A stretch of 64,000 nucleotides of DNA from Eledone cirrhosa. Lineage: Eukaryota. Each line of letters starts with the position of its first letter. The first letter of the stretch is position 1. The stretch lies in NCBI GenBank assembly GCA_964016885.1, contig OZ024743.1:346394001-346458000 (forward strand), read 5' to 3'. The notes beneath the pieces are model-generated. The model did not search any database and had not been told where the DNA came from. It saw only the letters and a program-made list of their open reading frames with translations. Positions 10,648 to 64,000 of the stretch are shown here, one piece after another. The translations under genes and the position numbers were made by a program.

Positions 10648-10830
10648 TCAGAATGGAGGCGGTAAAAACCAGTTAGACCATTACTCACAAAAGTACTCGA
10701 AACTTGGGGTAGTAGAGTGGGTATATGACAAATACAGGACCTCGACGGCTGAGCTCCGGCTACTTCAACAGCTATATCCGAACTTGGATCTAGCTGTTGA
10801 AACGGCTGGAGTTCATCCGTCGGTGTCCTG
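10648..10830. mobile_element. PLE pseudo-LTR fragment (family H1, diverged) with fold-back palindrome 10735-10830
   Basis: Homologous to 24444-24645; arms caggacctcgacggctgagctc... / ...gaaacggctggagttcatccgtcggtgtcctg, centred near 10783. Confidence 0.8.
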
Positions 10831-10951
10831 ATTTCATGTATGTATTTATGTTTGTGTGTTTGTGTGTCTGTGTTTGTGTGTGTGTGCGTGTCAGCGCGTG
10901 ATTGTGTGCGCATGTATATGTTAAGATGAGTGTATAAATATATATGCATGC

Positions 10952-21102: not shown

Positions 21103-21147
<45 letters not shown>

Positions 21148-21191
21148 AAGTTAAATAAAAGTCAAATGATTAAAATTTAGCTTCGTTTATT

Positions 21192-21246
21192 ACTGCTATA
21201 TATATTTCAGTGACAGCCATCTTTGGCTGTGACCTCTTCAGGCAGT
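21192..21246 (-). ncRNA. Minimal type I hammerhead ribozyme (intact core)
   Basis: actgc-CTGAAGA-ggtcacagcc(aaagat)ggctgtcact-GAAA-tatata-TA-gcagt. Confidence 0.92.
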
Positions 21247-22435
21247 TTGAATTAGTATGGTATAGACAAGTACATATGTTGTTTAGGTGTATGATATTGT
21301 CAATACTCTGATATGCCCAGTTCCTTGCTGGGTTGTTAATTCACTGGGGAACTGGAGTCATATGAATTCAAACAAACGAATTTTCGTGTCACAGGTCCCC
21401 TTCTCCTCTCATTGGTCAGTTATTAGTGTTGTCATTGTTGGAGTTAGCTTAAAAATTGATAAAATGGTAGAAGGGACAAGGTGTTGAAGGAACAAAATCT
21501 CAAAAAATGTGTCAAACTTCCCATTGTTCAGTTCTGAGAGCATTCCTCAGTCAGAGTCTATAGAATTCTTTCTGGGGTGAGGCTCCCTGTGGTGTTTATG
21601 CCTGCTATTGTTCAGTACATTTGACCTCCACCATTATTTTGGTACTGTTGTTGTTGTAGTGGTCAGCTTATACCTTGCTGCTGCTAACAATTTAGAAGTA
21701 TTCAGTTTGTGTTTTCTCTTCATCCCACCCGCCACCATCGTAGTGGTGGTGACGGGTGGGGGGAGGGGGTTCTTTCATGTATATGAAGAAATATAAGGCA
21801 ATAAATGAAGAAAACAGAAGATAAATAAATAATATAATAAAATAAAATAATTAATATAATTTGTGTAATTTGAAAATAAATAAATAAATAGAGAATAAAG
21901 AATAAAGAGTAAATGAGAGATTGGTGAAAAAGTAATGATAATGTATATGGAGAAGTGAGAAATAATGTAGGATAAAGTGTGTGTGTGTGTGTGCTATAAC
22001 CAATCTCAAGGTCAGAATATGTTGGATAGATTGGTATGATACAAGATGTTAAGATGAGATATTCAATGTGTTTGTGTTATAATCTATCTCAACTTAAAAT
22101 AAATATAAGGTTATACAGTGAAGAGGGCAGAAAACAAATAACAAATTAATAAAGAGAAATCAAGATTTAAGATTGGAACTTTAAAGTCAGAAATCTGGTA
22201 AATTAAAAGTGTTTGTGTTATAGATGTTGGCCAGATTATTATGGCTGTGTCCGATTCTATCTCTAGGCTATCATGGTGTCTGCTCCGCCTGGGTTGTTCC
22301 CTATGGCTTGAGGGGAGTTCACAACCTAGGGTGTTGTAATTGTCCATATAGCTTGAGGGAGGTCTGGCCGAGAGGTGTTTTCATGTTCTGTAGAAGTCCC
22401 TATAGCTTGAGGGGAGTTCACATCTTCTTGTGTTG

Positions 22436-22900
22436 CTACTGTCCATATATTTTGAGAAAGGTCCCGGCTCTAAGGTGTCTGCATGTCCCGAAGAAGTCGG
22501 TTCTGAGGTTTATCAGGCCGCTTCCACCTCTTAGTATCTCGAGGGTCTCGTTCAGGCATAGTTTGCATATGCAAGATCCCCCTTTATCGGGTGGTACTTT
22601 CCTGATTATGTACCAGGCCAGAGAGTATGGGGTCCTGTCCAGCTTAAGCTTCCAGATCAGGTCGGAGAGAGCTGTGCTTTTCCTTTTGGCCTCCTTCTTG
22701 AATGAATGGCGATGGTTGTACCAGCGGTCCTTAAAGCTCGTTGATGTGGCTCCTATGTAGAGGTATTCGGAGTTGGGGGTTTTAACCCTACAACCGTACA
22801 CTATGTTCTTCTTGAGACATTCATTACCAAGGGGGCATGATTCGGGGTTTCTACAGTTGCAGAGGGTGGGCGGCCTCTGCGTGCTTAGATTAGGGTTCTC
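22436..22900 (-). pseudogene. PLE GIY-YIG endonuclease domain (5'-truncated ORF; CNC..CPL..C linker, tentatively Nematis-type)
   Basis: CNCRNPESCPLGNECLKKNIVYGCRVK..YIGATSTSFKDRWYNHRHSF..CKLCLNE; open reading frame but no RT. Confidence 0.92.
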
Positions 22901-23259
22901 ATTATGTGCTACATGTAGGGAGCCTCACCCCAGAAAGAATTCTATAGACTTCTGACTGAGGAATGCTCTCAGAACTGAACAATGGGAAGTTTGACACATT
23001 TTTTGATATTTTGTTCCTTCAACACCTTGTCCCTTCTACCATTTTATCAATGTTTAAGCTAACTCCAACAATGACAACACTAATAACTGACCAATGAGAG
23101 GAGAAGGGGACCTGTGACACGAAAATTCGTTTGTTTGAATTCATATGACTCCAGTTCCCCAGTGAATTAACAACCCAGCAAGGAACTGGGCATATCAGAG
23201 TATTGACAATATCATACACCTAAACAACATATGTACTTGTCTATACCATACTAATTCAA

Positions 23260-23314
23260 ACTGCCTGAAGAGGTCACAGCCAAAGATGGCTGTCACTGAA
23301 ATATATATAGCAGT
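23260..23314 (+). ncRNA. Minimal type I hammerhead ribozyme (intact core)
   Basis: Identical inverted copy of 21192-21246; stem I actgc/gcagt, palindromic stem III atatatat. Confidence 0.92.
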
Positions 23315-23455
23315 AATAAACGAAGCTAAATTTTAATCATTTGACTTTTATTTAACTTTATTTTACACTACTCCGGAGTAACCAAACCAACCTGCGCACT
23401 TCGTCGAGTGCTCCAGCCTGCATACTGAGGTGTTGGTATACAACCAACATAAACT

Positions 23456-23527
<72 letters not shown>

Positions 23528-24263
23528 GGATACTATTTATAGTTATGTATATACTAAAACCTTTTATAGTTATATATATTTTAAACCCTAAACAGTGAAA
23601 GACAGTAATTTATTACTACCTTATTACCAGTAAGATAAATAGCTCAATGTAATAACATCAGTTGTTCTACAGAGCAGTTATATAGAATTCACAAGAATCA
23701 AAGCTATCTTCAAAGCATTTATTATTTTTCTGCACACATACTTTTTTCTTCTATACAAAAAATACCTTACCACTACAACCACCATAATAATCTTGCTTAC
23801 CCGCTTAAAGTGCTTGCATTACGTGTAACGCCCTGCCACACAATGATAGTATAAAACTGAGACACACTTGCATGTTCCACGTGTAACTAACGCATACACT
23901 ACCTACTAGACCTGACTATCAAACTATCCTCTTGCATTATCTGTGTTATCTGCCGAATGTATTTTAATTTTGATTTTGATTTTAAATTTGATTTTGATTT
24001 TGATTTTGATTTTGAATTTGAATTGCTGTACAAAAATAGTATAGTATAATATATGCCACTCCACTGTACATCAATATATATATAAGTATCTGTATGTCTC
24101 TTGCGTTGGAAAGGATGTCAATTATGTGTACAAACATTGAAAAAGGCTCCGAAGACTCCAAGCCTAGGTTTGGGTGAAACAAATGTAAGTGAATAAATGC
24201 TTTGAACATAGCTTTGATTCTTGTGAATTCTCTCTCTCTCTCTATCTCTCTCTATATATATAA

Positions 24264-24443: not shown

Positions 24444-24645
24444 TAACGAAGGAAATGTGGTAAGGAACCAGGTGGACCATAACGCACCAAAGTACTCAAT
24501 ACTTCGGGTAGTAGAGTGGGTAATAGGAACGAGTAGGACCCCGACAGCTGAGCTCAAGCCGTTTCGACGGCTAATTCTAGACTGAGTCCAGAATTAGCCG
24601 TCGAAACGGCTTGAGCTCAGCCGTCGGGGTCCTACTCGTTCCTAT
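24444..24645. mobile_element. PLE pseudo-LTR fragment (family H1) with 61-bp fold-back palindrome centred at 24584
   Basis: Arms 24523-24583 / 24585-24645 with 2 mismatches; the plus arm has GAAA(24603)-cggct tgagctc agccg-TC-ggggtc. Confidence 0.9.
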
Positions 24646-29478: not shown

Positions 29479-29546
<68 letters not shown>

Positions 29547-29554
29547 AAAAAAAG

Positions 29555-32216
29555 CTGAAATCGAAAATGCAACTGAGTCTTATTTTTTTAAAAATATATA
29601 TATTTATTTGGTTCTTTTACCGGTTTCGCAGTTCTTCTGCTTTTCGAAAGTAGAGTTGAGATGGAGGGTCTGTGGTTTTTCTCACATCTGGTTGGTCTTT
29701 GAATGTTACTTGTTTTATATGGAAAAAACTGGGTCGAAACGCCAGGTTTTTAGAGAAGTAATTTGATTGGTTGGTCAATAATTATGATAAATTTCGCGCC
29801 AGTTCGCGTTACAAAGTTCTTCAAGCAAGGGGGCGGCTCAGGTTGATTTTTTCATATACGAGTGTTTGAATTTCTTTTTACTTTAAAAAAAAGGGGCTCA
29901 TGAAGGCTTTTTTTAAATAAACGTAATGTGATTGGTTATAAATGAAATTATGGCTGTCACGTGAACTTCGTGCCCGTATTTGGAAATTTATTCTGTAGCC
30001 TTTTTAGAGAATTTTATGACAAGCAAAAGATAATGGTCAAGAGAAATGGAATGGGAGAATTGTTCTGGTTCAGTGAATAAGGTTAGTTCGCTGGGGTGTC
30101 AGAATTCAGATTTTCTATTGAAATAAAGAAAGTAAAGATATGTATGTTTATTTGTGTGCTTGTGTGTGTTGTGTGTGTTTGAATTTATTTTTTACTTTAA
30201 ACAAAGGGGGCTCACGAAGGCTTTTTTTTTTAAACGTAATTTGATTGGTTATAAATGAAATTATGGTTGTCACGTGGACAAGTTTTCATTAAATTTCGCG
30301 CCCGTATTTGGAAATCTATTCTGTAGCCTTTTTAGAGAATTTTATGACAAGCAAAAGATAATGGTCAAGAGGAATGGGATGGGAGAGTTGTTCTGCTTCA
30401 GTGAATATGGTTAGTTCGCTGGGGTGTCAGAATTCAGATTTTCTATTGAAATAAAGAAAGTAAAGATATGTATGTTTATTTGTGTGCGTATAGGAAGATG
30501 ATTATATTAGTAGAAATGGGGGAGGGAGTTGTGTGTGTGTGTATGGGTCTTATGTGTGTGTGCGTGTGTGGGAGTATGTTAAGTTGGAGCGAATATATAT
30601 ATTTTGTGTGTGTGTATATATGTGTTTAGGAAAGTGATTCTATTAGTAGACATGGGGGAGAGAGTTGTGTGTGTGTGGGGGTGGGTTTTTGTATGTGTGT
30701 GTATGGGTGTTATGTGTGTGTGGGAGTATGGGTAGCATGTTAAGATAAAGAGAATATATATATATTGTGTGTGTAGGAAAATGATTCCGTTAGTAGAAAT
30801 ATTTTTGAATGAACATATTTTCCTCACTTATTCGTATTTGTGCTGTTGTATTGTCAGCGCAAACGTATGTTAAGGCTTATTTAGTTCGGGTTTTTATTTT
30901 CTAAAGTAGCAGGTGTTATGTGTGTGTGTATGTGTCTGTTTTGGATGGTTCGCACGTTATGGTGTTCACATAATGTATATTAAACCATATTTATTGCTGG
31001 TCTATATTTTTTAATAAACATATTTTCCTTATTTATTCGTATTTGTTCTGTTGTATTGTCAGCGCAAAGGTAAAATGGGAAGACTTGGAATTTGGGTGTC
31101 TTATTACTTGCGCATATGTCTAGATGTACGCTTAGTGGTATATGTCTCGTGGTTGGATCTCGTAATTGTTGGCGATGAACTGTCGTTCTGTTTCTGAGTG
31201 TGAGTTTAGTTTGTCCTATATAATCTTCATTGCATCCTTTACATTTAATGGCATAAAGTAGATTTTTTGATGAGCAAAAATTTCTCCTGATTTAATATAT
31301 ACGTGTTGCCTTCAATGAGGTGAGAGGAGGTTCCACAATTAGAGCGACCACATTTTTTGACAGTTGGTTGTGGGTTTGTGGTAGGTAATTTAGCATTGGT
31401 GAGTAATGTTTTCAGTGATTTAGGTTGTCTTTTGCTTTTGATTATTTTGTGTTTCAAGGGCTTTTTTCATTCTTGGGTCTTGTTTTAGTAGTGGGATGTA
31501 CTTGTGAATAGTGTTGTAAGCTTCCGCATTTCTTGGGTTGTGTGTTGACATGTATGATAGAATATTGGACGTACCTTGAATTTGTTTCTGTTTTCGTAAT
31601 TCATCAATGTCTATTGTTTTAGCCCTTTCTATTCCATTATTTATTAGTAATGGTGGGTACTCTCTTTCTGCGTTTCATAATTGGAGACAATGGTGCAAAT
31701 TCTTCTTGCTAGGTTAAAAGGAATGTTCGTCTTCGTGTGCTTTTGATGGTTGGAGGTGAATAGCAGGTATTGTTTGGAATCTGTTGGTTTGTAGTGTATG
31801 TCAGTTTCAATATTTATGTCTTTTTTTAAGATTAAGATCTCCAGAAATGGGAGTTGATCTTGGCTGTATTCCATTGTGAATTGGATGTGGTTATTGATGC
31901 CGTTTATTAAGTTTTTGAAATCATTCAGCTGGTCGAGTGTGTGGGACCAAAGAATGAGACAATCATCCAAGTAGCGTTTCTAATTCTCTGATATATATTT
32001 GTGGAAGTTCAATCCGTATTTTAATTTGGACTGTTCATATATCTGGACTTCTAAGTATGCCATAACTAAGTTGGCATAAGTTGGAGCGGATTTTGTACCC
32101 AACGCAGTCCCCGATATTTGCTTGTAAGTACTGCCATCGAAATCAAAAAAAGTTGTTCTGTAAGATAAATTTTAATCCCACGGTGATGAAGTTTTTTTCT
32201 ATTCTGCCAGGTATCT
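29555..32216 (-). mobile_element. 5'-truncated Penelope-like element (RT + C-x4-C-x2-(C)-type linker + GIY-YIG + long 3' region + pseudo-LTR), tentatively Neptune-type
   Basis: GTALGTKSAPTYANLVMAYLE and RYLDDCLILW (RT), KKCGRSNCGT linker, YAIKCKGCNEDYIGQTK..R..HRQQ (GIY-YIG, about 31050-31260); degenerate HHR at 29614-29650; ends near (TA)n. Confidence 0.93.
29868..30490. repeat. About 313-bp tandem duplication inside the PLE 3' region
   Basis: Units start gaatttcttttt (29868) and gaatttattttt (30181) and share long identical blocks. Confidence 0.9.
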
Positions 32217-32277
32217 CATTGGGATAGTTCTCTAGCCAGAATCCTATTGCTTCCTATATATATACATATATATACAT

Positions 32278-32358
<81 letters not shown>

Positions 32359-32413
32359 CATAGTAATAATAATACATTTGAAGACTAAAATGCCAAAAGG
32401 GCTCGATAAGGAT

Positions 32414-34333: not shown

Positions 34334-36255
34334 CAGGGGTCGGCAACCTTTTGGAGAGAGAGGGCCAAACAGCTATGCAGTCTCATGGAGGAGAGCCATG
34401 TTATTAAATATGTAAATAAATTTTCTGGAGGTTTAAAGCAAAACAAGGAATTTAATATAATTTTCTTTTAACAAGGCCCCTTATTTTACTGCATGAATAA
34501 CAAAAAAAAAAGAAAAAAAAACTACAAACACATTTAACAAAAAAAAACAAGACAAATTCCTTATTTTACTGCAGGAATAACAGAAAAACAACTACTATCA
34601 CAATCAACAAAAAAGAAAGCAAATTCCTTGCTACAAACGAAATACAGTTAGAAATGGTAAATGATTTAATGAGACTCTTGTTTCTGCTTATTGTGCGATA
34701 ACTTCTCCACATCAGTTGAAATATTTGTCGACGACAGGAGCAAAACATCATCCAGGTGGTCGTCACGCAACCTTGTTCTTAAATGACTTTTAGTATATTT
34801 CATTTTGAAAAAAAAGTTGTTCACAAGCTTATGAACTTCCAAATAATGATATCATCAGTTTCGCATTAGTCAAGATGTTTTTATATTTTCTGCTTGGCAA
34901 TATATATTTCTTGTAGAAGTCAGCAGTGTATTCGAACTGAAATTTCGATTTCAAAGATTCGACGCACTGTAAGTCAATTAACTCCAACTGATATTCTTCT
35001 GCCACTTGCTCCACATCTGTTTCGTAAGGAGTACCAAATAATTTAAATAGAGTTCCATATTGCCGGAAGTCAGCAAAACGAGAGGAAAACTCGCTTCTCA
35101 AATCCTTAATAGAGCTCACAAAGATGTCTGGTATTATATCTCTCTTGTGATTTTGGAGACTTGGGAAATGAGAGTAGTTTCCTTTTTGAAGTTGTGATTC
35201 CCACAGTCGAAGTTTTCTCTCAAAAGCAGTAATTTGACCAAACATCTCAAATACAACCTTGTTCTTTCCTTGAAGCTCAAGATTCAAAGTGTTCATGTGG
35301 GTCGTGATGTACACTAAAAAAGCTAACTTGACAACCCACTGTGGATCCTGAAAGTAAGAATTATCTTGGTCTTTGCTCTCTAAAGTCATAGAAATCTCTT
35401 CTCTCAATGCATATACTCGTTCTATCATTTTTCCGCGGCTAAGCCATCGAACATTTGAAAAATATGTAAGGTCGCCATACTCTGCTTCAATTTATTTTAG
35501 AAATTCTTGAAACTGGCGATGATTTACTCCTCTTGACAGTATAACATTCACTGTTTTCACGACCACTGCCATGATGTCCTTAAAATTCAGTGACTTTGCA
35601 CATAATGCTTCTTGATGAATAATGAAATGAAGTTTGATTAGTTTTTTTATCAATACCGATGGGGTTTTGGAGCAATGCAACACACCCCTTTTTCTCTCCA
35701 ACCATTGCTGGTGACTACTCCAGAAAGCTTTGATAAATCCAGATTCATTTTGGTAATCCATTGTATTATGCTTCCAAAATATCTGCTCCAGTGCTAGTGT
35801 CCTTCATAGGAATCAATTGTACAAATTCTTCCACAATATCAAATGTTGGTTTTACACACCTCACAAACACTGCAGGTTGACAAGTATCCTTCATATCTGT
35901 GGATCCATCGATAGCAATGGAATAATACTCCAGATTATTTAAAATGCCCTCCAAGCCACTTCTGACATTTGCTGCCAGCTCTTCAATTCGCCTTGTTACT
36001 GCCGATAAGCTGATCGCAGAAAATAATTCCTTTTTTTCTGGACAAACAACATCTGCTACATTCAACAATAATTCTTTGAAGAAATTTCCATCAGTAAAAG
36101 GTTTCATCCTTTCTCCAATTAGTTTTGACACCTCGTAGCTAGCACGAGTATTTCGGTCACTTTCTTTAACTTTTCTAGTGAAGAAGGATGATTGCTTTGT
36201 TACATTATTTCTCAGCCGTGCAACTTCGTTTACTCGGGCTTTTCCAGTAAACGAT
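34334..36255 (-). mobile_element. hAT transposon (Buster/SPIN/GTF2IRD2-like transposase), 5'-truncated and frameshifted
   Basis: TIR CAGGGGTCGGCAACC at 34334, preceded by gttTAggg (nnnTAnnn Buster-type target); motifs YYSIAIDGSTD, IIHQEALCAK, VRWLSRG, LNLELQGK, SLFGSS. Confidence 0.93.
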
Positions 36256-38493: not shown

Positions 38494-38654
38494 TTCAGAA
38501 GATCCCGCTAAGGGTGAAAGCAGCGATTCTTTGCTTAAACTTTAATTTGTTATTTTAATAAATATTTGCTCTACGGTTCTTATATATTTGATATATATTT
38601 ATCCTTATCGAGCCCTCTTTGTATTTTAGCCTTCAAATGTATTATTATTATTAC

Positions 38655-40578: not shown

Positions 40579-40862
40579 CAATGGAGTGTAACGTAAAGTT
40601 ACGGTAGGTTCACCAAGGTGAGCACTCGATGTTTAGATTCATGCCTGTAACGCGGTGTTACAGTGTTAGAGCTTAACAGAGTGTAAATATTATAATACAA
40701 GGACGATATGTTATGTCTTCATTACGTTTATTAGTTGGTGACGCGCGTTTCGCTATTGATCAGCTCAAGGTTCGATCTGAATCGAATAGCGAAACGCGCG
40801 TCACCAATCAATAAACTTAATGAAGACATGATAAATCGTCCTTCTATTATTAGATTTATATA
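40577..40862. mobile_element. PLE pseudo-LTR fragment (family H3) with fold-back palindrome 40682-40860
   Basis: Both arms read gc-GAAA-cgcgcg-TC-accaa; joined through gctatt...aatagc. Confidence 0.85.
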
Positions 40863-41885: not shown

Positions 41886-41943
41886 ATAAGGGGGTAAATG
41901 ATCTAAATTCTAACGTGTTGACTTGTACTTCATTATTATGAAT

Positions 41944-42260
41944 ACGGGGTCGATAAAATAAAGTACCAGTAATGCACTGGCTAAATGCTGGCCTTGTGCC
42001 AGAAGTAGAAACAATTATTATGAAATGACTCCGGAATAAACAGATGTACTTGTATACTTCTTTGAGTGCACTATCCTGCTTACAATAGTTGTTTCTACTT
42101 TTGGCACAAGGCCAGCAATTACTCAGTGCATTACTGGTCCTTTATTTTATCGACCCCGTAAGGAGGAAAGGCAAACTTAACATTTGGCGGGATTTGAACT
42201 CAGAACATAGAAACGTAACGATGCTAGAAAGCATGGCGTTCGACTGTCTACCGATACTGC
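41944..42260. mobile_element. Two SINE family 1 copies, tail-to-tail (41944-42020 +, 42086-42260 -)
   Basis: Direct match to the family consensus. Confidence 0.9.
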
Positions 42261-42329
42261 GAATAGCGTCAGTTACATATTTAATTATATATATATATAT
42301 ATTGTTATACTTGGGGAGGGTCATATATA

Positions 42330-42714
<385 letters not shown>

Positions 42715-42763
<49 letters not shown>

Positions 42764-44041
42764 AGGGTTAAAATACTGGAGTGTGTTAGAGTTAAACACC
42801 CTCTTCGTATTATAGAAATGACAGTAAAAGGTATAGCTCAATGTAGTTAAACAGAGCCGAAAAATTAACAGAGTAAAACAAAGAAGCCTTCAATACATCA
42901 AAAGTCTTTATTAGCCGACAATGTTTCGTCCTATTAAGGACTCATCAGGGCAATTAAAACAACAAGAAGTAATATCGGCAGATACAAGCCGGAAGCTCCG
43001 AAGAATATGGAGTGTACATACACTGAAGTATTACAAAAATATATAATAAAAATATATGATAAAAATTACTAAGGATGTATATAACACTAAGAACCATATT
43101 ACAAATATAGTCCAAAGCAAAAACTAGAGCTAAACAAAGGTGGTTATATAGAGCAGGAATTATATATAATACAATATAACATACTATAATATACCTTTAC
43201 CAACATTAAAATTACAATAAAAATCAAAAGATACAATATGCATATGTATATATGTGCGCACACGTACACACACACATACACATACAACAATACACACATC
43301 CATCCTCAACTGCACAAATTAAACCTTATTAAGAATTTGAATATATAAATAAGCATGATAGGAATGAAAATAATAATAATAATAATACTAATACATCTAC
43401 CCAATATACATGAGGTAATAATATGATATAATTATAAGTAGTACATAGGTAATAATATGATATAATTATAAGTAACACATATAATAATAAATAATACAAT
43501 TATATACTATATAATACAATATAATAGAATAGATAATCTCCGGTTAATTTACACAAACAATATAGATGTCACAATAATAATATAATAATAATATTTACAA
43601 TATACAATATACTAACATTCTAAATGTACTCAAGTTAACAAGTCAATTCATACTGGGTTGCAGAGTAGGTGAGGAAAAATAAAATGTACAATACCTCAAA
43701 AGAATTTTGATGATACAGAAGTACAAACATCTTACAAGATATATAAGGTTTAACATATCATAATGTTACATATAATTAACGGTAAGTAATAAGGATCAAT
43801 ATTACAATAAAAAATACAATATAATATAATATAATATATAAAATAAAATTAATACAATATAATATAATTACTTATAATTACAAGGTTGGTAGACAGACAT
43901 GTACATGGATGAGTGAGTAAGTGCCAGACAGTAAATATAATCATATATCGGCTCTGTTTAACTACATTGAGCTATACCTTTTACTGTCATTTCTATAATA
44001 CGAAGAGGGTGTTTAACTCTAACACACTCCAGTATTTTAAC

Positions 44042-44081
<40 letters not shown>

Positions 44082-44099
44082 GTGAGGTTTTTTTTACAA
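42715..44099 (-). mobile_element. Non-coding PLE-type element with about 146-bp inverted arms (42715-42860 / 43948-44099) and an intact HHR
   Basis: Arms identical except for TA-tract length; AT-rich interior with no ORF. Confidence 0.88.
42910..42954 (-). ncRNA. Minimal type I hammerhead ribozyme (canonical, GUC site)
   Basis: attgcc-CTGATGA-gtcct(taat)aggac-GAAA-c(att)g-TC-ggctaat. Confidence 0.92.
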
Positions 44100-44469
44100 G
44101 TAAGTAAAAAAAGGGGGGAGGAGAAGAAAAAAGGAACAAAACATAAAACCTAGATGTCAAAACACGGATATAAAGACACATACACATACGCATACATATA
44201 TACATACACATAAATATATATACATATATATATATACTGACATACAGATACATTTGCCCTTAATTATATATTTACGCACACTTTTTCACTATACGTATAC
44301 ATATGTGCATACACATATATGCACATCTGCGAGCGTATATACATACATATACACACACCTAACTATATTTCTTGAAAGATTATTATATATTTCATATTCT
44401 AATTCATTTGTCTATATCTTTTTTTTGATTTTCTTGACGAGACTTTCCAAGTATTTACCCATGTTTTAT

Positions 44470-44547: not shown

Positions 44548-44659
44548 TATATTGTATTGATTTTTATACATTATATATATATATATATATATATATTTAT
44601 TAAAATAACAGATTAAAGTTTAAGCAAAGAATCGCTGCTTTCACCCTTAACATATAGAC

Positions 44660-44692: not shown

Positions 44693-44842
44693 ATATAGAA
44701 ATGGCTTCTACAGGACTAGAACTGTTTCACTCGAAGGAAACTGTTCTCGTCCTGTAGAAGATATTTCTCTATTAAATATTTATACTCTGCTATGTATAGA
44801 GTACCTTAATTACTGTGGTTACTCCTGATTGATCCCGGGATA
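44691..44842. mobile_element. PLE pseudo-LTR fragment (family H4) with fold-back palindrome 44691-44774
   Basis: The arms read GAAA-cagttctagtcctg-TA-gaag (one arm slightly diverged); an unfolded relative with CTGATGA is at 61463-61520. Confidence 0.8.
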
Positions 44843-54886: not shown

Positions 54887-55025
<139 letters not shown>

Positions 55026-55229
55026 ATAATAATAAATTTGAAGACTAAAATCCAAAGAGGGCTCGATAAGGATAAATATATATCAAATATCAAAGAACCG
55101 TAGAGCAAATATTTCTTAAAATAATAGATTAAAGTTTAAGCAAAGAATCGCTGCTTTCACCCTTAACGGGATCTTCTGAACCTCTATAATATATATATAT
55201 TAATATATACATATATATTAATATGTAAA

Positions 55230-57120: not shown

Positions 57121-57125
<5 letters not shown>

Positions 57126-57309
57126 ACTAGAAATAGATTGACACATATATATATATAAAATAAACACATGAAACAATCTCAGGGAATAATTTGTAAAGTG
57201 AGTAACCACACATGGCTAGGTAGGTAACTAATTAAAGTTTAACTAGAATTTCAATATCACCTTCAATATAACCTTTGAAAATGATTAATCTCCTTTGTAT
57301 ATATTTCTT

Positions 57310-57340
<31 letters not shown>

Positions 57341-57927
57341 TTACTTCTACACACGTCTAAGAGACATGACAATCTTAATTTAATGTTGGATATATATACT
57401 GATATATATTGATGTAGAGCTAATTCAGTTGAATAGACTCGGCTGCTATTTCTATCTGTCGATAATCCTATTCATGCCACTGGGATGACGCGGTGCGGTG
57501 TCTGTATTTTTTATAAATTGCAAAACGTGGTTCGATCATTCACAGATTTGCATTTGATGTGTAAACGCAGATGGTTGGATCTTCTCCTTTGGTGACCATT
57601 CGGGTTTGACCGCTGTGATTTACTGGTTAATTGGTGAAATATATTTTTTATTTAAAGAAATATATACAAAGGAGATTAATCATTTTAAAAGGTATCTATA
57701 TTTGAAGTTCTAGTTAAACTTTAATTAGTTACCTATCTAACTATGTGTGCTTACACACTTTATAAATTATTCCCTGAGATTGTTTCATGTGTTTATTTTA
57801 TATATATATATGTCAATCTATTTCTAGTTGATATAAAATGGTCGGATCTATTCATTGGAATCTTTGAACTTATTCTGCAGTGAATATGGCGCATGTCTCT
57901 CAAACATGACATTCTTAATTTAATTTT

Positions 57928-57930
<3 letters not shown>
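57121..57930. mobile_element. Inverted pseudo-LTR pair (57121-57315 / 57649-57835) with a decayed HHR at 57583-57675, (TA)n at both ends
   Basis: About 190-bp diverged arms; tctcctttg-(gtga)-ccatt..aattggt-GAAA-tatat..atata-TA-caaaggaga. Confidence 0.75.
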
Positions 57931-58117: not shown

Positions 58118-59257
58118 TGGTCTTCTGGTTATATTATTTTGTAAACTTCCACCATTTCAGAGAGTGCCGGTCCCTAACTTAGAAACAAGATTCTTTCATT
58201 GGAATTTAGTCAACATCAACTAGGTATATACGTATGTATATCTGTATATGATTAAATGTATGTGCAGGAATGCATGTGGATAAGTATTTTCTTTTCAGTT
58301 ATATAAGTATATTTTTTTTAGTTACATATGTTTCTGTATCTATGCATGTCTATATGCAGCTATTACATGCTGAGTTTCTGAAATGTTTTACACAATTTTA
58401 CAGTTCCATTAATGGACTGTATTTTCATCTTCCTCACTAGTCGTGCTCTTTCTAGTTCCGTGAAGCCCATCTATGTATGTATGATATCTCTTTCTCTTAA
58501 TTTCGAGTATATTTTTTTGCCCGGCCACCTTCCTGGTGGCAAGGTTGTAAAAGAAAAGAAATTGTCATCCCTTGAATCGCAAGAATGTTTTGCAAATTTT
58601 GAAGGTGCCAGCTATCGCAGCCATTTGTAGACTATGAATTAGGGAGCTGCGCTTTTTGTCCGCAAATCCAAGTTCAGTCATACTTTGGTCCAAGCGGGTT
58701 GGTATATAACTCGTAGCTCCAATAATGATGGGTATGAAGGCTATCTTGGATACTGGATTTGTAAACTCCTCATCAATGGTCCGTATATGTCCTCCTTGTC
58801 CTGTATTTTTCTGACAACGTTTACATCAAGTGGGCAGCTGATCTCCACAACAGAACTCGTTTTCAATGTGTAGTCCCAAACAACAATATCAGGCCGGTTG
58901 TGCTTTAATTTAGTGGCAGTTTTTATTTTCAGGTTCCACCAGTATTCCTTAGTGCCATCTGTCTCAATATATTCTTCCTCGTTTGTTGTTAATTTTGTTT
59001 ACCGAAATGCGTTCCAGATGGTTCTAGCTATCCCATCGTGTCTCATGGGGAGGTAGTAGCGAGATGACATTCTTTCGCAGCTGGCAACAATGTGGCTTAC
59101 ATCCTCGATCTTTGTTTTACATAGCCTACATTTATTGTCAGCTGATCGCCCTCCCCTTTTGTGCAGCAGATATTTGGTAGGGAGTTCTTGTTCCTGTATT
59201 GCATAGAGATATGCCTCAAGGTGTGATGTCATAAACTTGTCGAAACTCCATGCCAGA
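58118..59257 (-). mobile_element. R4/Dong-clade non-LTR retrotransposon 3' fragment (CCHC + RLE + 3' UTR)
   Basis: AIQEQEL..CRLCKTKIEDVSHIVASC..YLPMRHD..KHNRPDIVVWD..VEISCP. Confidence 0.9.
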
Positions 59258-59404
59258 TGTATGTATGTATGCATGTATGTATGTATGTATGTATGTATGT
59301 ATGTATGTATGTATGTATGTATGTATGTATGTATGTGTGTATGTATGTATGTATGTATGTATGTATGTATGTATGTGTGTATGTGTGTGTGTATGTATGC
59401 ATGC

Positions 59405-60742
59405 ATTTTCTACTAGTTTCATTATTTTATAAATTTTTACCAATACAGAGATAGCCGGTTTCTACCATAGACACAAGACTCTTTTATTGGAATTTAGACA
59501 TCAACTAAGTAAATATGTATGTATGTCTGCTAGCGTGTGAGTGTTCGTTCATGTGTATGTGTATGTGTTATTACTGAGGCAGTGTATGTGTTATTACAGT
59601 GCCCCAATAATTACAGGCATAAATCTGAAGGTGTAGTCAGGGTGGTGTATCTGTAGATTCCTCATTAGTTCTGTATAGATGTTCTCCTTTTCGCTGACTT
59701 CCACTACTTTGCATGTCTTCTTTTCTCTGTCCCATATAACTATATCTGGTCTGTTATGCTTGCATTTAGTTTGGGGTTTTGATTGAAATATTCCACCTGT
59801 ACTCTTTCTTATTATGTCTTCTACATTACCATAGCTTTTAATATGTTTATTGCCAGGGCTATCTTTTCTATAGATTGTAAGGCAGAGTGGTTTGGCTACT
59901 ATATCGTACCTCATCGGTAGATATTACCATGATGACATTTTGTCACATCTAGTTGTTTTGCCTGCATCCCTATCTCTATTGCGAGTCAGGTATTTTGTAT
60001 TGATTTCTTGATCTTGGATTTCAAAAGCTTACCATTCAAATTGAGAGCCAATATGGCGGTTGTAGGTCCAATATAGACTACTTTCCTTTACTATATTACT
60101 CTCAATTTGGAACCCCATGGCAACATATCCATTCATAATTCTTTTGCTGATAAACATGCAGCTTTTCGTCCATGGTTTCACTGCGGTATTGCTGTCCAAT
60201 TTCCCCGGGTGAGTTTTTGATTATCATACAGGGATTATTTCTCAAGGAGCTGCTTCCAAACTCTCATGATCTTAACTGGCTCCTGTAGAGAGACTTGCTC
60301 AGTAGATGAGCTCCTACGCTTGATTGTTCATAACTGTTGACAGAGGGATGTGATGCGATACTCAAATGCAGTCTGCACTGATATTAGGTCTCTGCGTCCC
60401 TGTTTACGTTTCTGGTAGAGGCAGTATATGTCACTGTAGATGTGAAAATTTCCGGTGTTTTTTAAAGATTTATCGAGTTTAATCATCGGATTTCATCTAT
60501 CGTCCAATCGAGTATTCCGAATATTGGTATTAGGACAAACACAGCAAACCCTCTCTGACCCACTGTTTTATTGAGTGCAGAGAATTCAGATGACCCTATT
60601 TTCGATAATATGGTGTAATAAACACTGGTTAGGCGTTCCTTGTTACAAATACTATCATAAGATATATTCTCATATATTCCTAGGTATCTGTAGGAGTTCT
60701 CTTGACATATCCCTGAAATAGTTAGGCCATTGATAAGAATGT
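59405..60742 (-). mobile_element. Second R4/Dong-clade fragment (end of RT to RLE + 3' UTR)
   Basis: SYRYLGI, FGILDWT..EI, MRYDIVAK, KHNRPDIVIWD..PVIIGAL; 3' UTR homologous to 58125-58250; (ATAC)n on both sides. Confidence 0.9.
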
Positions 60743-63589: not shown

Positions 63590-64000
63590 TCCTTGAATCT
63601 CAGTCATTGATGTTGGTTAACTGGAAAGTCCGTTGGATTGAATATCAAGCCACTACCTGCAGCCTCAGATATTCAGGACGTATCGGAGGGTTCTTGCTGT
63701 TCCAAGCAAGCATGCCTTTTGAAGCGTTCCAAAAAGCGTGAAGGGGCCGATTTTCTTTAACCATCCCTGGAAACCTTTGGAGATAGTCCCCAGTGCGCCT
63801 ATGACAATCGGGATCACTTTGACTTCATGGCAGTTCCAAATCCTTTTCACCTCCCACTTTAGGTCCTGGTATCGGTTAATTTTCTCCCTCTCCTTCTCTT
63901 GCACTCTCGTGTCGAACGGGCAGGCCACATCCACAATCAGGCACGATCTTTTTTCTTTGTCCACAACCACCAGGTCAGGTCTATTGTGTTCCAGTTTTTT
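63590..64000 (-). mobile_element. R4/Dong-like 3' fragment with (TAA)n tail; runs off the window
   Basis: HNRPDLVVVDK..IVDVACPFD..EKINRYQDL..PIVIGALG..LQKACLLGTARTLR (open frame). Confidence 0.92.

What the first reader, a model, noticed from the sequence alone, without database searches (positions are those of the whole stretch)
42715..44099. Inverted arm copies through the (TA)n target into the neighbouring element
Seen: the inverted repeat includes about 98 bp of element end, the TA tract, and ttgtaaaaaaaacctcactttctaa, which is contiguous with the tail of the 42443-42740 fragment and reappears inverted at 44076-44099. Inference: the inverted arm was templated on the already joined cDNA-target strand, not on element RNA, which duplicated flanking DNA in inverted form. 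This is mechanistic support for DNA-templated fold-back synthesis in PLE integration.
Basis: partly seen in the sequence, partly recalled or inferred. Interest (0 to 1): 0.72.

Follow-up and report, generated by a model that had tools for sequence, protein, structure and literature searches.

The report
Retrotransposon end copied with neighbouring DNA
A truncated jumping-gene copy carries a mirror image of its own end that runs on through a TA repeat into 24 neighbouring bases; this probably records DNA copying during insertion, as known for other retrotransposons, but one site cannot prove it.

Summary
A 97-nt arm (42764-42860) and a 24-nt outer segment (42715-42738) recur as exact inverted copies at 43948-44044 and 44076-44099, around TA tracts of 25 and 31 nt. 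The element is a non-coding, 5'-truncated, hammerhead-bearing Penelope-like end in a probable octopus genome.

The 24-mer has no third copy in the window, and the neighbour family's only other copy ends about 60 nt short of it, so its ownership is inferred.

For DNA-templated copying:
- 16 of 17 independently fixed element ends here abut microsatellites.
- Internal TA tracts are 8-13 nt, not 25-31.
- The outer junction lies in the loop of a 9-bp hairpin, as in repair-type joins.

Against:
- The 36 unduplicated bases match the classic Penelope one-sided 'tail'.
- A second element (57124-57929) shows similar anatomy, apparently element-internal.
- No fold-back pairing is visible at the inner junction.
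- Geometry cannot separate cDNA fold-back from invasion by the other DNA end, RNA read-through or later conversion.

cDNA snap-back and inverted flank duplication are published for R2 and L1; my searches found no Penelope case. Best reading about 0.55; interest 0.4.

The parts
42443..42531 (-). Inverted arm of the neighbouring element E2; its outer end merges into a (GA)n tract
42532..42678 (+). E2 direct terminal repeat, about 88% identical to the 3' end of the RT + GIY-YIG element at 29544-32255
42567..42600 (+). Minimal type I hammerhead-like motif of E2 (variant core)
   Evidence: own pattern scan and fold; not an Rfam hit
42679..42714 (.). 36 nt, single copy and not duplicated; part of E2's tail (preferred), E1's tail, or host DNA
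42715..42738 (+). Outer 24-mer, left (putative template) copy
42739..42763 (.). (TA)n tract, 25 nt; putative shared target of E1 and E2
42764..42860 (-). Last 97 nt of element E1 (putative primed 3' end at 42764)
42910..42954 (-). Hammerhead type I ribozyme of E1
   Evidence: Rfam RF00163, 31.7 bits (gathering score 34), E 1.6e-5
42861..43947 (-). E1 body: terminal repeat plus AT-rich non-coding region, 5'-truncated, with no coding remnant
43948..44044 (+). Inverted copy of E1's last 97 nt
44045..44075 (.). (TA)n tract, 31 nt
44076..44099 (-). Inverted copy of the outer 24-mer
44089..44112 (.). 9-bp hairpin (44089-44097 with 44104-44112) whose 6-nt loop holds the outer junction
   Evidence: noticed first and tested afterwards

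Best explanation
E2, including a tail of about 60 nt, already ended at the (TA)n tract. E1 then inserted tail-to-tail in the same tract by target-primed reverse transcription from the plus strand, stopping after about 1.18 kb. During resolution, a DNA-templated step copied the new 3' junction in inverted form: 97 nt of E1, the TA tract (slipping by three units) and 24 nt of E2's tail. The copy was joined to the right flank by microhomology-type end joining. Shown: the arms, tracts, hammerheads and family boundaries. Inferred: the order of events, E2's ownership of the 24-mer, a DNA template, and timing at insertion.
For: (1) Element ends in this window sit on microsatellites. Of 22 termini tallied, 17 are fixed by a second copy or arm, and 16 of those 17 abut a dinucleotide run of 7 nt or more (for two of them I set the coordinate 10-13 nt short and read the tract from the printed flank). 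This reading gives both E1 and E2 such an end. (2) TA tracts that I classed as internal to element ends are 8-13 nt (11 of 11). Terminal tracts are 7-61 nt, with 11 of the 13 measured at 16 nt or more; two more were not located. E1's 25 and 31 nt fit the terminal class. (3) Two families here have two 3' termini 80-90 nt apart, shown by dispersed copies, so a 60-nt E2 tail is in character. (4) The outer junction lies in the loop of a 9-bp hairpin; 264 of 127,634 window positions give an equal match. That resembles the snap-back end-joining signature described in PMC5728401 (passages). (5) Three short-loop inverted ends in the window turn 10-30 nt upstream of a hammerhead-like GAAA, as expected for cDNA self-priming at stem II (inference). 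(6) Precedent: cDNA snap-back onto cDNA or nearby target DNA at R2 insertions (PMC11371274), and inverted flank duplications at L1 insertions (10.1101/2024.12.14.628481).
Against: There is no empty allele and no dispersed E1 copy. No contiguous microhomology or stable fold is visible at the inner junction, where a fold-back over 1.1 kb must start. The unduplicated remainder is exactly 36 nt, the length of the classic one-sided Penelope tail. No remnant of the TA tract and no target-site duplication is seen on the right flank. The 57124-57929 element has the same arm + TA + 24-nt anatomy, and there the outer piece looks element-internal. The inverted arm at 22917-23363 is followed by 97 nt that the direct arm lacks; if that is element tail, fold-back cannot have made that arm. 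The hairpin test was post hoc.
Confidence: 0.55

Rival explanations
1. RNA-templated. The TA tract and 24-mer were in the RNA, either as E1's own terminal repeat with a 36-nt tail on one arm only, or as read-through or antisense RNA from a donor locus where E1 abutted E2. Both arms were then primed separately or self-primed on RNA.
For: 42679-42714 is 36 nt; a 30-40 nt tail at one end only is typical of these elements (PMC8557442; 31 bp in PMC3846280). A purified PLE protein nicks and extends both strands and starts at two internal RNA sites (PMC11167929). PMC3846280 proposes self-priming on antisense and read-through transcripts. The segment at 23582-23680 is the best match to E1's tail among 352 TA-adjacent segments and is followed by a 9-nt TA and 52 more nt. 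The 57 kb element shows similar anatomy.
Against: In the own-tail version, both E1 ends would lack a microsatellite (runs of 4 and 2 nt), and the internal tracts would be 2-3 times longer than any other measured. The 52-nt outer piece at 23521-23572 resembles 42679-42738 no better than real TA flanks do (36 of 167 score as high).
Confidence: 0.2
2. Post-insertion change. E1 inserted with an ordinary inverted arm ending in (TA)n; later replication template switching or conversion between the arms overwrote the start of the right flank with a copy of the left flank.
For: Both arms and the 24-mer are perfectly identical. The 57 kb arms show patchy identity, with about 70 identical outer columns beside a diverged middle.
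Against: It needs pairing across a 1.1-kb loop and a second event. Perfect identity is equally explained by youth.
Confidence: 0.12
3. The empty site was already a palindrome centred on (TA)n, made by an earlier break and snap-back repair, and E1 inserted at its centre with a normal inverted arm.
For: Both E1 arms would end on TA tracts, unequal tract lengths come for free, and the junction hairpin fits a repair origin.
Against: 0 of 31 TA tracts of 12 nt or more with two complex flanks form such a palindrome in this window.
Confidence: 0.08
4. Assembly or polishing error that copied left-flank bases onto the right arm.
For: Identical arms of about 150 nt around a microsatellite are hard to assemble (general knowledge); reads were not available.
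Against: The window has no N and keeps long microsatellites. The tracts differ in length, and the mirror ends at a unique flank.
Confidence: 0.05

Closest known systems
Inverted pseudo-LTR and tail of endonuclease-bearing Penelope-like elements (PMC3846280; PMC8557442)
   Same: 5'-truncated copy with a head-to-head inverted 3' segment, a hammerhead in the terminal repeat, a (TA)n target and no clear TSD.
   Different: Here the inverted segment apparently extends past the element into the target repeat and adjacent DNA. The passages I read describe tails as element sequence and propose RNA self-priming.
Snap-back 5' junctions of R2-protein (PRINT) insertions (PMC11371274)
   Same: The cDNA 3' end primes DNA-templated synthesis on cDNA or nearby target DNA before the 5' junction forms.
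   Different: Engineered non-LTR system in human cells; a run from cDNA through the primer into flank is not described in the passages read.
L1 insertions with inversion or inverted duplication of flanking DNA (10.1101/2024.12.14.628481)
   Same: Inverted duplication of target DNA at a TPRT site, explained by self-annealing of break ends.
   Different: The reported inverted duplications are on the reciprocal end and primed by small hairpins; here the primed-side junction itself is duplicated.
SD-MMEJ snap-back repair (PMC5728401)
   Same: The junction lies inside a short inverted repeat, with templated insertion.
   Different: Described for nuclease breaks and short inserts, not for a 150-nt copy across a retroelement junction.

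Membership tests
EN+ Penelope-like element (E1, 42764-44044) | ORF with PLE-type RT and GIY-YIG endonuclease | tested here: inconclusive
   No coding remnant in E1; it is truncated within non-coding sequence, so the feature is missing rather than contradicted
EN+ Penelope-like element (E1) | Type I hammerhead in the terminal repeat | tested here: met
   RF00163 at 42910-42954(-), 31.7 bits (gathering score 34), E 1.6e-5
EN+ Penelope-like element (E1) | 5' truncation with an inverted copy of the 3' end | tested here: met
EN+ Penelope-like element (E1) | Dispersed copies that define the 3' end and tail | not testable with these tools
   None in the window; none in bacterial and archaeal genome contigs; no host genome available
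Neptune/Nematis-type PLE (E2 family, via 29544-32255) | RT followed by CX2-5CxxC linker and C-terminal GIY-YIG | tested here: met
   Translation shows the cysteine linker before GIY-YIG; Pfam GIY-YIG; homologues with RT + GIY-YIG; linker definition from PMC8557442. No tree was built.
cDNA snap-back junction (R2/PRINT type) | Inverted segment complementary to cDNA or target next to the 5' junction | tested here: met
cDNA snap-back junction (R2/PRINT type) | Pairing of the cDNA 3' end at the turn point | tested here: inconclusive
   None visible; hidden microhomology cannot be judged without a family consensus
cDNA snap-back junction (R2/PRINT type) | Duplicated flank single-copy in the pre-insertion allele | not testable with these tools
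   No empty allele
SD-MMEJ junction | Junction inside a short nearby direct or inverted repeat | tested here: met
   9-bp stem at 44089-44112; post hoc, and the original end is unknown

The most novel reading that the evidence does not exclude
Many inverted terminal repeats of octopus Penelope-like elements are made on DNA, not RNA. Truncated cDNA self-primes, often at the hammerhead stem II hairpin, copies back toward the primed end and usually resolves by annealing in the (TA)n target; occasionally it runs through and duplicates about 24 nt of flank (here, and possibly at 57124-57835). Inverted flank copies would then be a countable genomic signature that decides between DNA fold-back and the published RNA self-priming or two-primer models, and the ribozyme hairpin would have a role as a cDNA priming site.
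Probability: 0.3. Interest if true: 0.65.

Novelty: new variant of a known kind. Interest (0 to 1): 0.4.

Why it matters
How Penelope-like elements make their tandem and inverted ends is stated as unresolved (PMC8557442, section 15; PMC11167929). An inverted arm that includes true target DNA cannot come from element RNA, so a genome-wide count of such junctions would test the models directly. One locus only suggests the test, and the same behaviour is already published for R2 and L1.

Tried and rejected
- Dispersed E1 copies in bacterial and archaeal genome contigs: 0 matches.
- PLE loci in the same collection: 11 loci, none similar to the finding region beyond short AT-rich matches. I viewed 3 of the 11; none holds both a direct 3' end and an inverted arm, so flank copying could not be scored.
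- Coding remnant in E1 or in the 60-nt segment, searched with 76 homologous proteins: none.
- A recalled N-terminal His-x6-Cys PLE motif matches 42695(+) as the only window hit. The pattern was fitted after seeing the segment, and the nearest-clade locus L001 lacks it, so I do not count it.
- Similarity of the 60-nt segment to 23521-23572: 63 of 2000 shuffles, but 36 of 167 real flanks score as high; rejected.
- Distance from hammerhead to terminus: 119-174 nt in the other long ends, E1 164, E2 153. Treated as weak, because several ends were defined by the tract itself and the 23521 extension would give about 220.
- TSD search: none.
- The octopus repeat library of PMC13282606 is on Zenodo and was out of reach. 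Supplement lists of PMC13282606 and PMC8557442 were seen but the files were not opened, and bioRxiv supplements were closed; any of these could bear on family ends.
- Metagenome and viral contig collections stayed unchecked.

Full report
Observation. The inverted repeat is real. 42764-42860 and 43948-44044 are exact reverse complements (97 nt), as are 42715-42738 and 44076-44099 (24 nt). The TA tracts between them are 25 and 31 nt. The 24-mer has a fixed-site chance probability near 8e-14 and no third copy in the window.

What the pieces are. The window is AT-rich, microsatellite-rich eukaryotic DNA. The best named homologue of its RT fragment at 31647-31979 is from Octopus bimaculoides (86%), so the host is probably an octopus (inference). 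The element in question (E1) reads on the minus strand. It has a type I hammerhead at 42910-42954 (Rfam 31.7 bits, just under the gathering score of 34) and no coding remnant, so it is a 5'-truncated Penelope-like end by anatomy, not by protein. The neighbour (E2, 42443-42678) has its own hammerhead-like motif on the plus strand and matches the 3' end of the RT + GIY-YIG element at 29544-32255. That relative stops at a TA tract at the position equal to about 42678. The 60 nt from 42679 to 42738, which contain the 24-mer, are therefore single-copy, and their owner is not shown.

Who owns the 24-mer. I used the other element ends in the window as controls. Two families have two 3' termini 80-90 nt apart, shown by several copies, so a 60-nt E2 tail is in character. 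Of 22 termini tallied, 17 are fixed by a second copy or arm, and 16 of those abut a dinucleotide run of at least 7 nt. The other 5 were set by the tract itself and are not counted, and for two of the 17 I mis-set the coordinate and read the tract from the printed flank. If the 24-mer is E2's tail end, both E1 and E2 finish on the shared (TA)n; if it is E1's, neither E1 end does. Tracts I classed as internal are 8-13 nt (11 of 11), while E1's are 25 and 31 nt, like terminal ones.

Evidence the other way. The unduplicated remainder is 36 nt, the length of the one-sided tail described for these elements (PMC8557442 passages; PMC3846280 passages). The 57124-57929 element shows arm + (TA)n of 13 nt + about 24 nt in both arms, with one arm running on 95 nt to a long tract whose end is repeated nearby, so there the outer piece looks internal. 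The segment 23582-23680 is the top match to E1's tail among 352 TA-adjacent segments and is itself followed by a short TA and 52 nt, though those 52 nt do not resemble the 60-nt segment beyond background (36 of 167).

Junctions. The inner junction (43947/43948) shows no contiguous microhomology to the turn point and no stable fold. The outer junction (44099/44100) lies in the loop of a 9-bp hairpin; 264 of 127,634 control windows give an equal match, but I tested it after noticing it. This resembles snap-back end joining (PMC5728401 passages). It fits resolution of a fold-back product, and it fits equally well priming by the right-hand target end that then copies the left junction from outside in. 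Both routes are DNA-templated. No TSD was found. Three short-loop inverted ends elsewhere (24526-24642, 40684-40858, 10730-10834) turn just upstream of a hammerhead-like GAAA, where stem II lies, which suggests cDNA self-priming occurs in this genome (inference). The inverted arm at 22917-23363 is followed by 97 nt absent from the direct arm. If that is tail it needs an RNA template; if it is host DNA it fits fold-back resolved in TA. I could not decide.

Mechanism and odds. DNA-templated copying across the joined 3' junction at insertion, 0.55. RNA containing the 24-mer (own tail, read-through or antisense), 0.20. Later template switch or conversion, 0.12. Pre-existing TA-centred palindrome, 0.08 (0 of 31 eligible tracts form one). 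Assembly error, 0.05. These are my judgements, not computed values.

Comparison with the literature. Inverted terminal repeats, tails and (TA)n targeting are standard for Penelope-like elements. PMC3846280 (passages and Discussion) infers self-priming but places it on antisense or read-through RNA. PMC11167929 (parts 1-2 of 4) shows both-strand nicking and extension with two internal RT start sites. cDNA snap-back onto cDNA or nearby target is reported for R2 protein (PMC11371274 passages), and inverted flank duplication for L1 (10.1101/2024.12.14.628481 passages). PMC13282606 (passages) reports recently active Penelope-like families in O. vulgaris, and 10.64898/2026.07.22.740005 (passages) added nothing on this point. 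Nine searches of an open-access library turned up no report of a Penelope inverted arm extending into target DNA. Subscription papers, including older Penelope work, are not covered, and no supplements were opened.

External tests. A genome-contig scan for the E1 arm found nothing. A scan with a PLE protein alignment gave 11 animal-like loci in bacterial genome bins. Of the 3 viewed, none allowed flank copying to be scored; L006 does confirm a related element ending on (TA)n.

Verdict. It is one locus without family consensus or empty allele, and the process is known in other retrotransposons. New variant of a known kind; interest 0.4.

Noticed in passing
window 24526-24642, 40684-40858, 10730-10834 (possibly 44698-44767): Short-loop inverted element ends that turn at the stem II position of a hammerhead-like motif; the inverted arms stop early, two of the three at short or long TA runs.
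   Followed up: partly
window 57124-57929: Second element with arm + 13-nt TA + about 24 nt in both arms; arm identity is patchy, and a 60-nt repeat of its far end lies at 57339-57398.
   Followed up: partly
window 21143-23460: Young PLE (GIY-YIG on minus strand) with 447-nt arms, 99.3% identical; the inverted arm is followed by 97 nt and a TA tract that the direct arm lacks.
   Followed up: partly
window 55024-55180, 38494-38650, 44597-44651, 32361-32413: One family with two 3' termini 89 nt apart, and a 51-nt terminal piece alone between TA tracts.
   Followed up: partly
window 23521-23723 and 24140-24228: Hammerhead-like end with a 37-nt inverted arm and a 166-nt extension weakly similar to E1's tail.
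   Followed up: partly
window 29544-32255: Neptune/Nematis-type RT + GIY-YIG element with stops and frameshifts, flanked by TA tracts on both sides, with tandem 300-nt repeats in its 3' non-coding part.
   Followed up: partly
window 41943-42264 and about eight other sites (805, 6737, 9577, 13350, 16625, 24265, 40872, 46355): Abundant SINE-like repeat of about 190 nt; the copy at 41943-42160 also has an inverted 3' arm.
   Followed up: no
window 34829-36254 (-); 58999-59923 and 63665-64000 (-): Transposase-like fragments (hAT-like by recall; no Pfam hit) and non-LTR RT-associated fragments (zf-RVT hit).
   Followed up: no
L007 3221-4325; L011 1451-2324; L001-L011 generally: Animal-type PLE contigs sit inside bacterial genome bins (probable host contamination); L007 has a 1-kb head-to-head inverted 3' part, and L011 a long hairpin upstream of its RT match.
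   Followed up: partly
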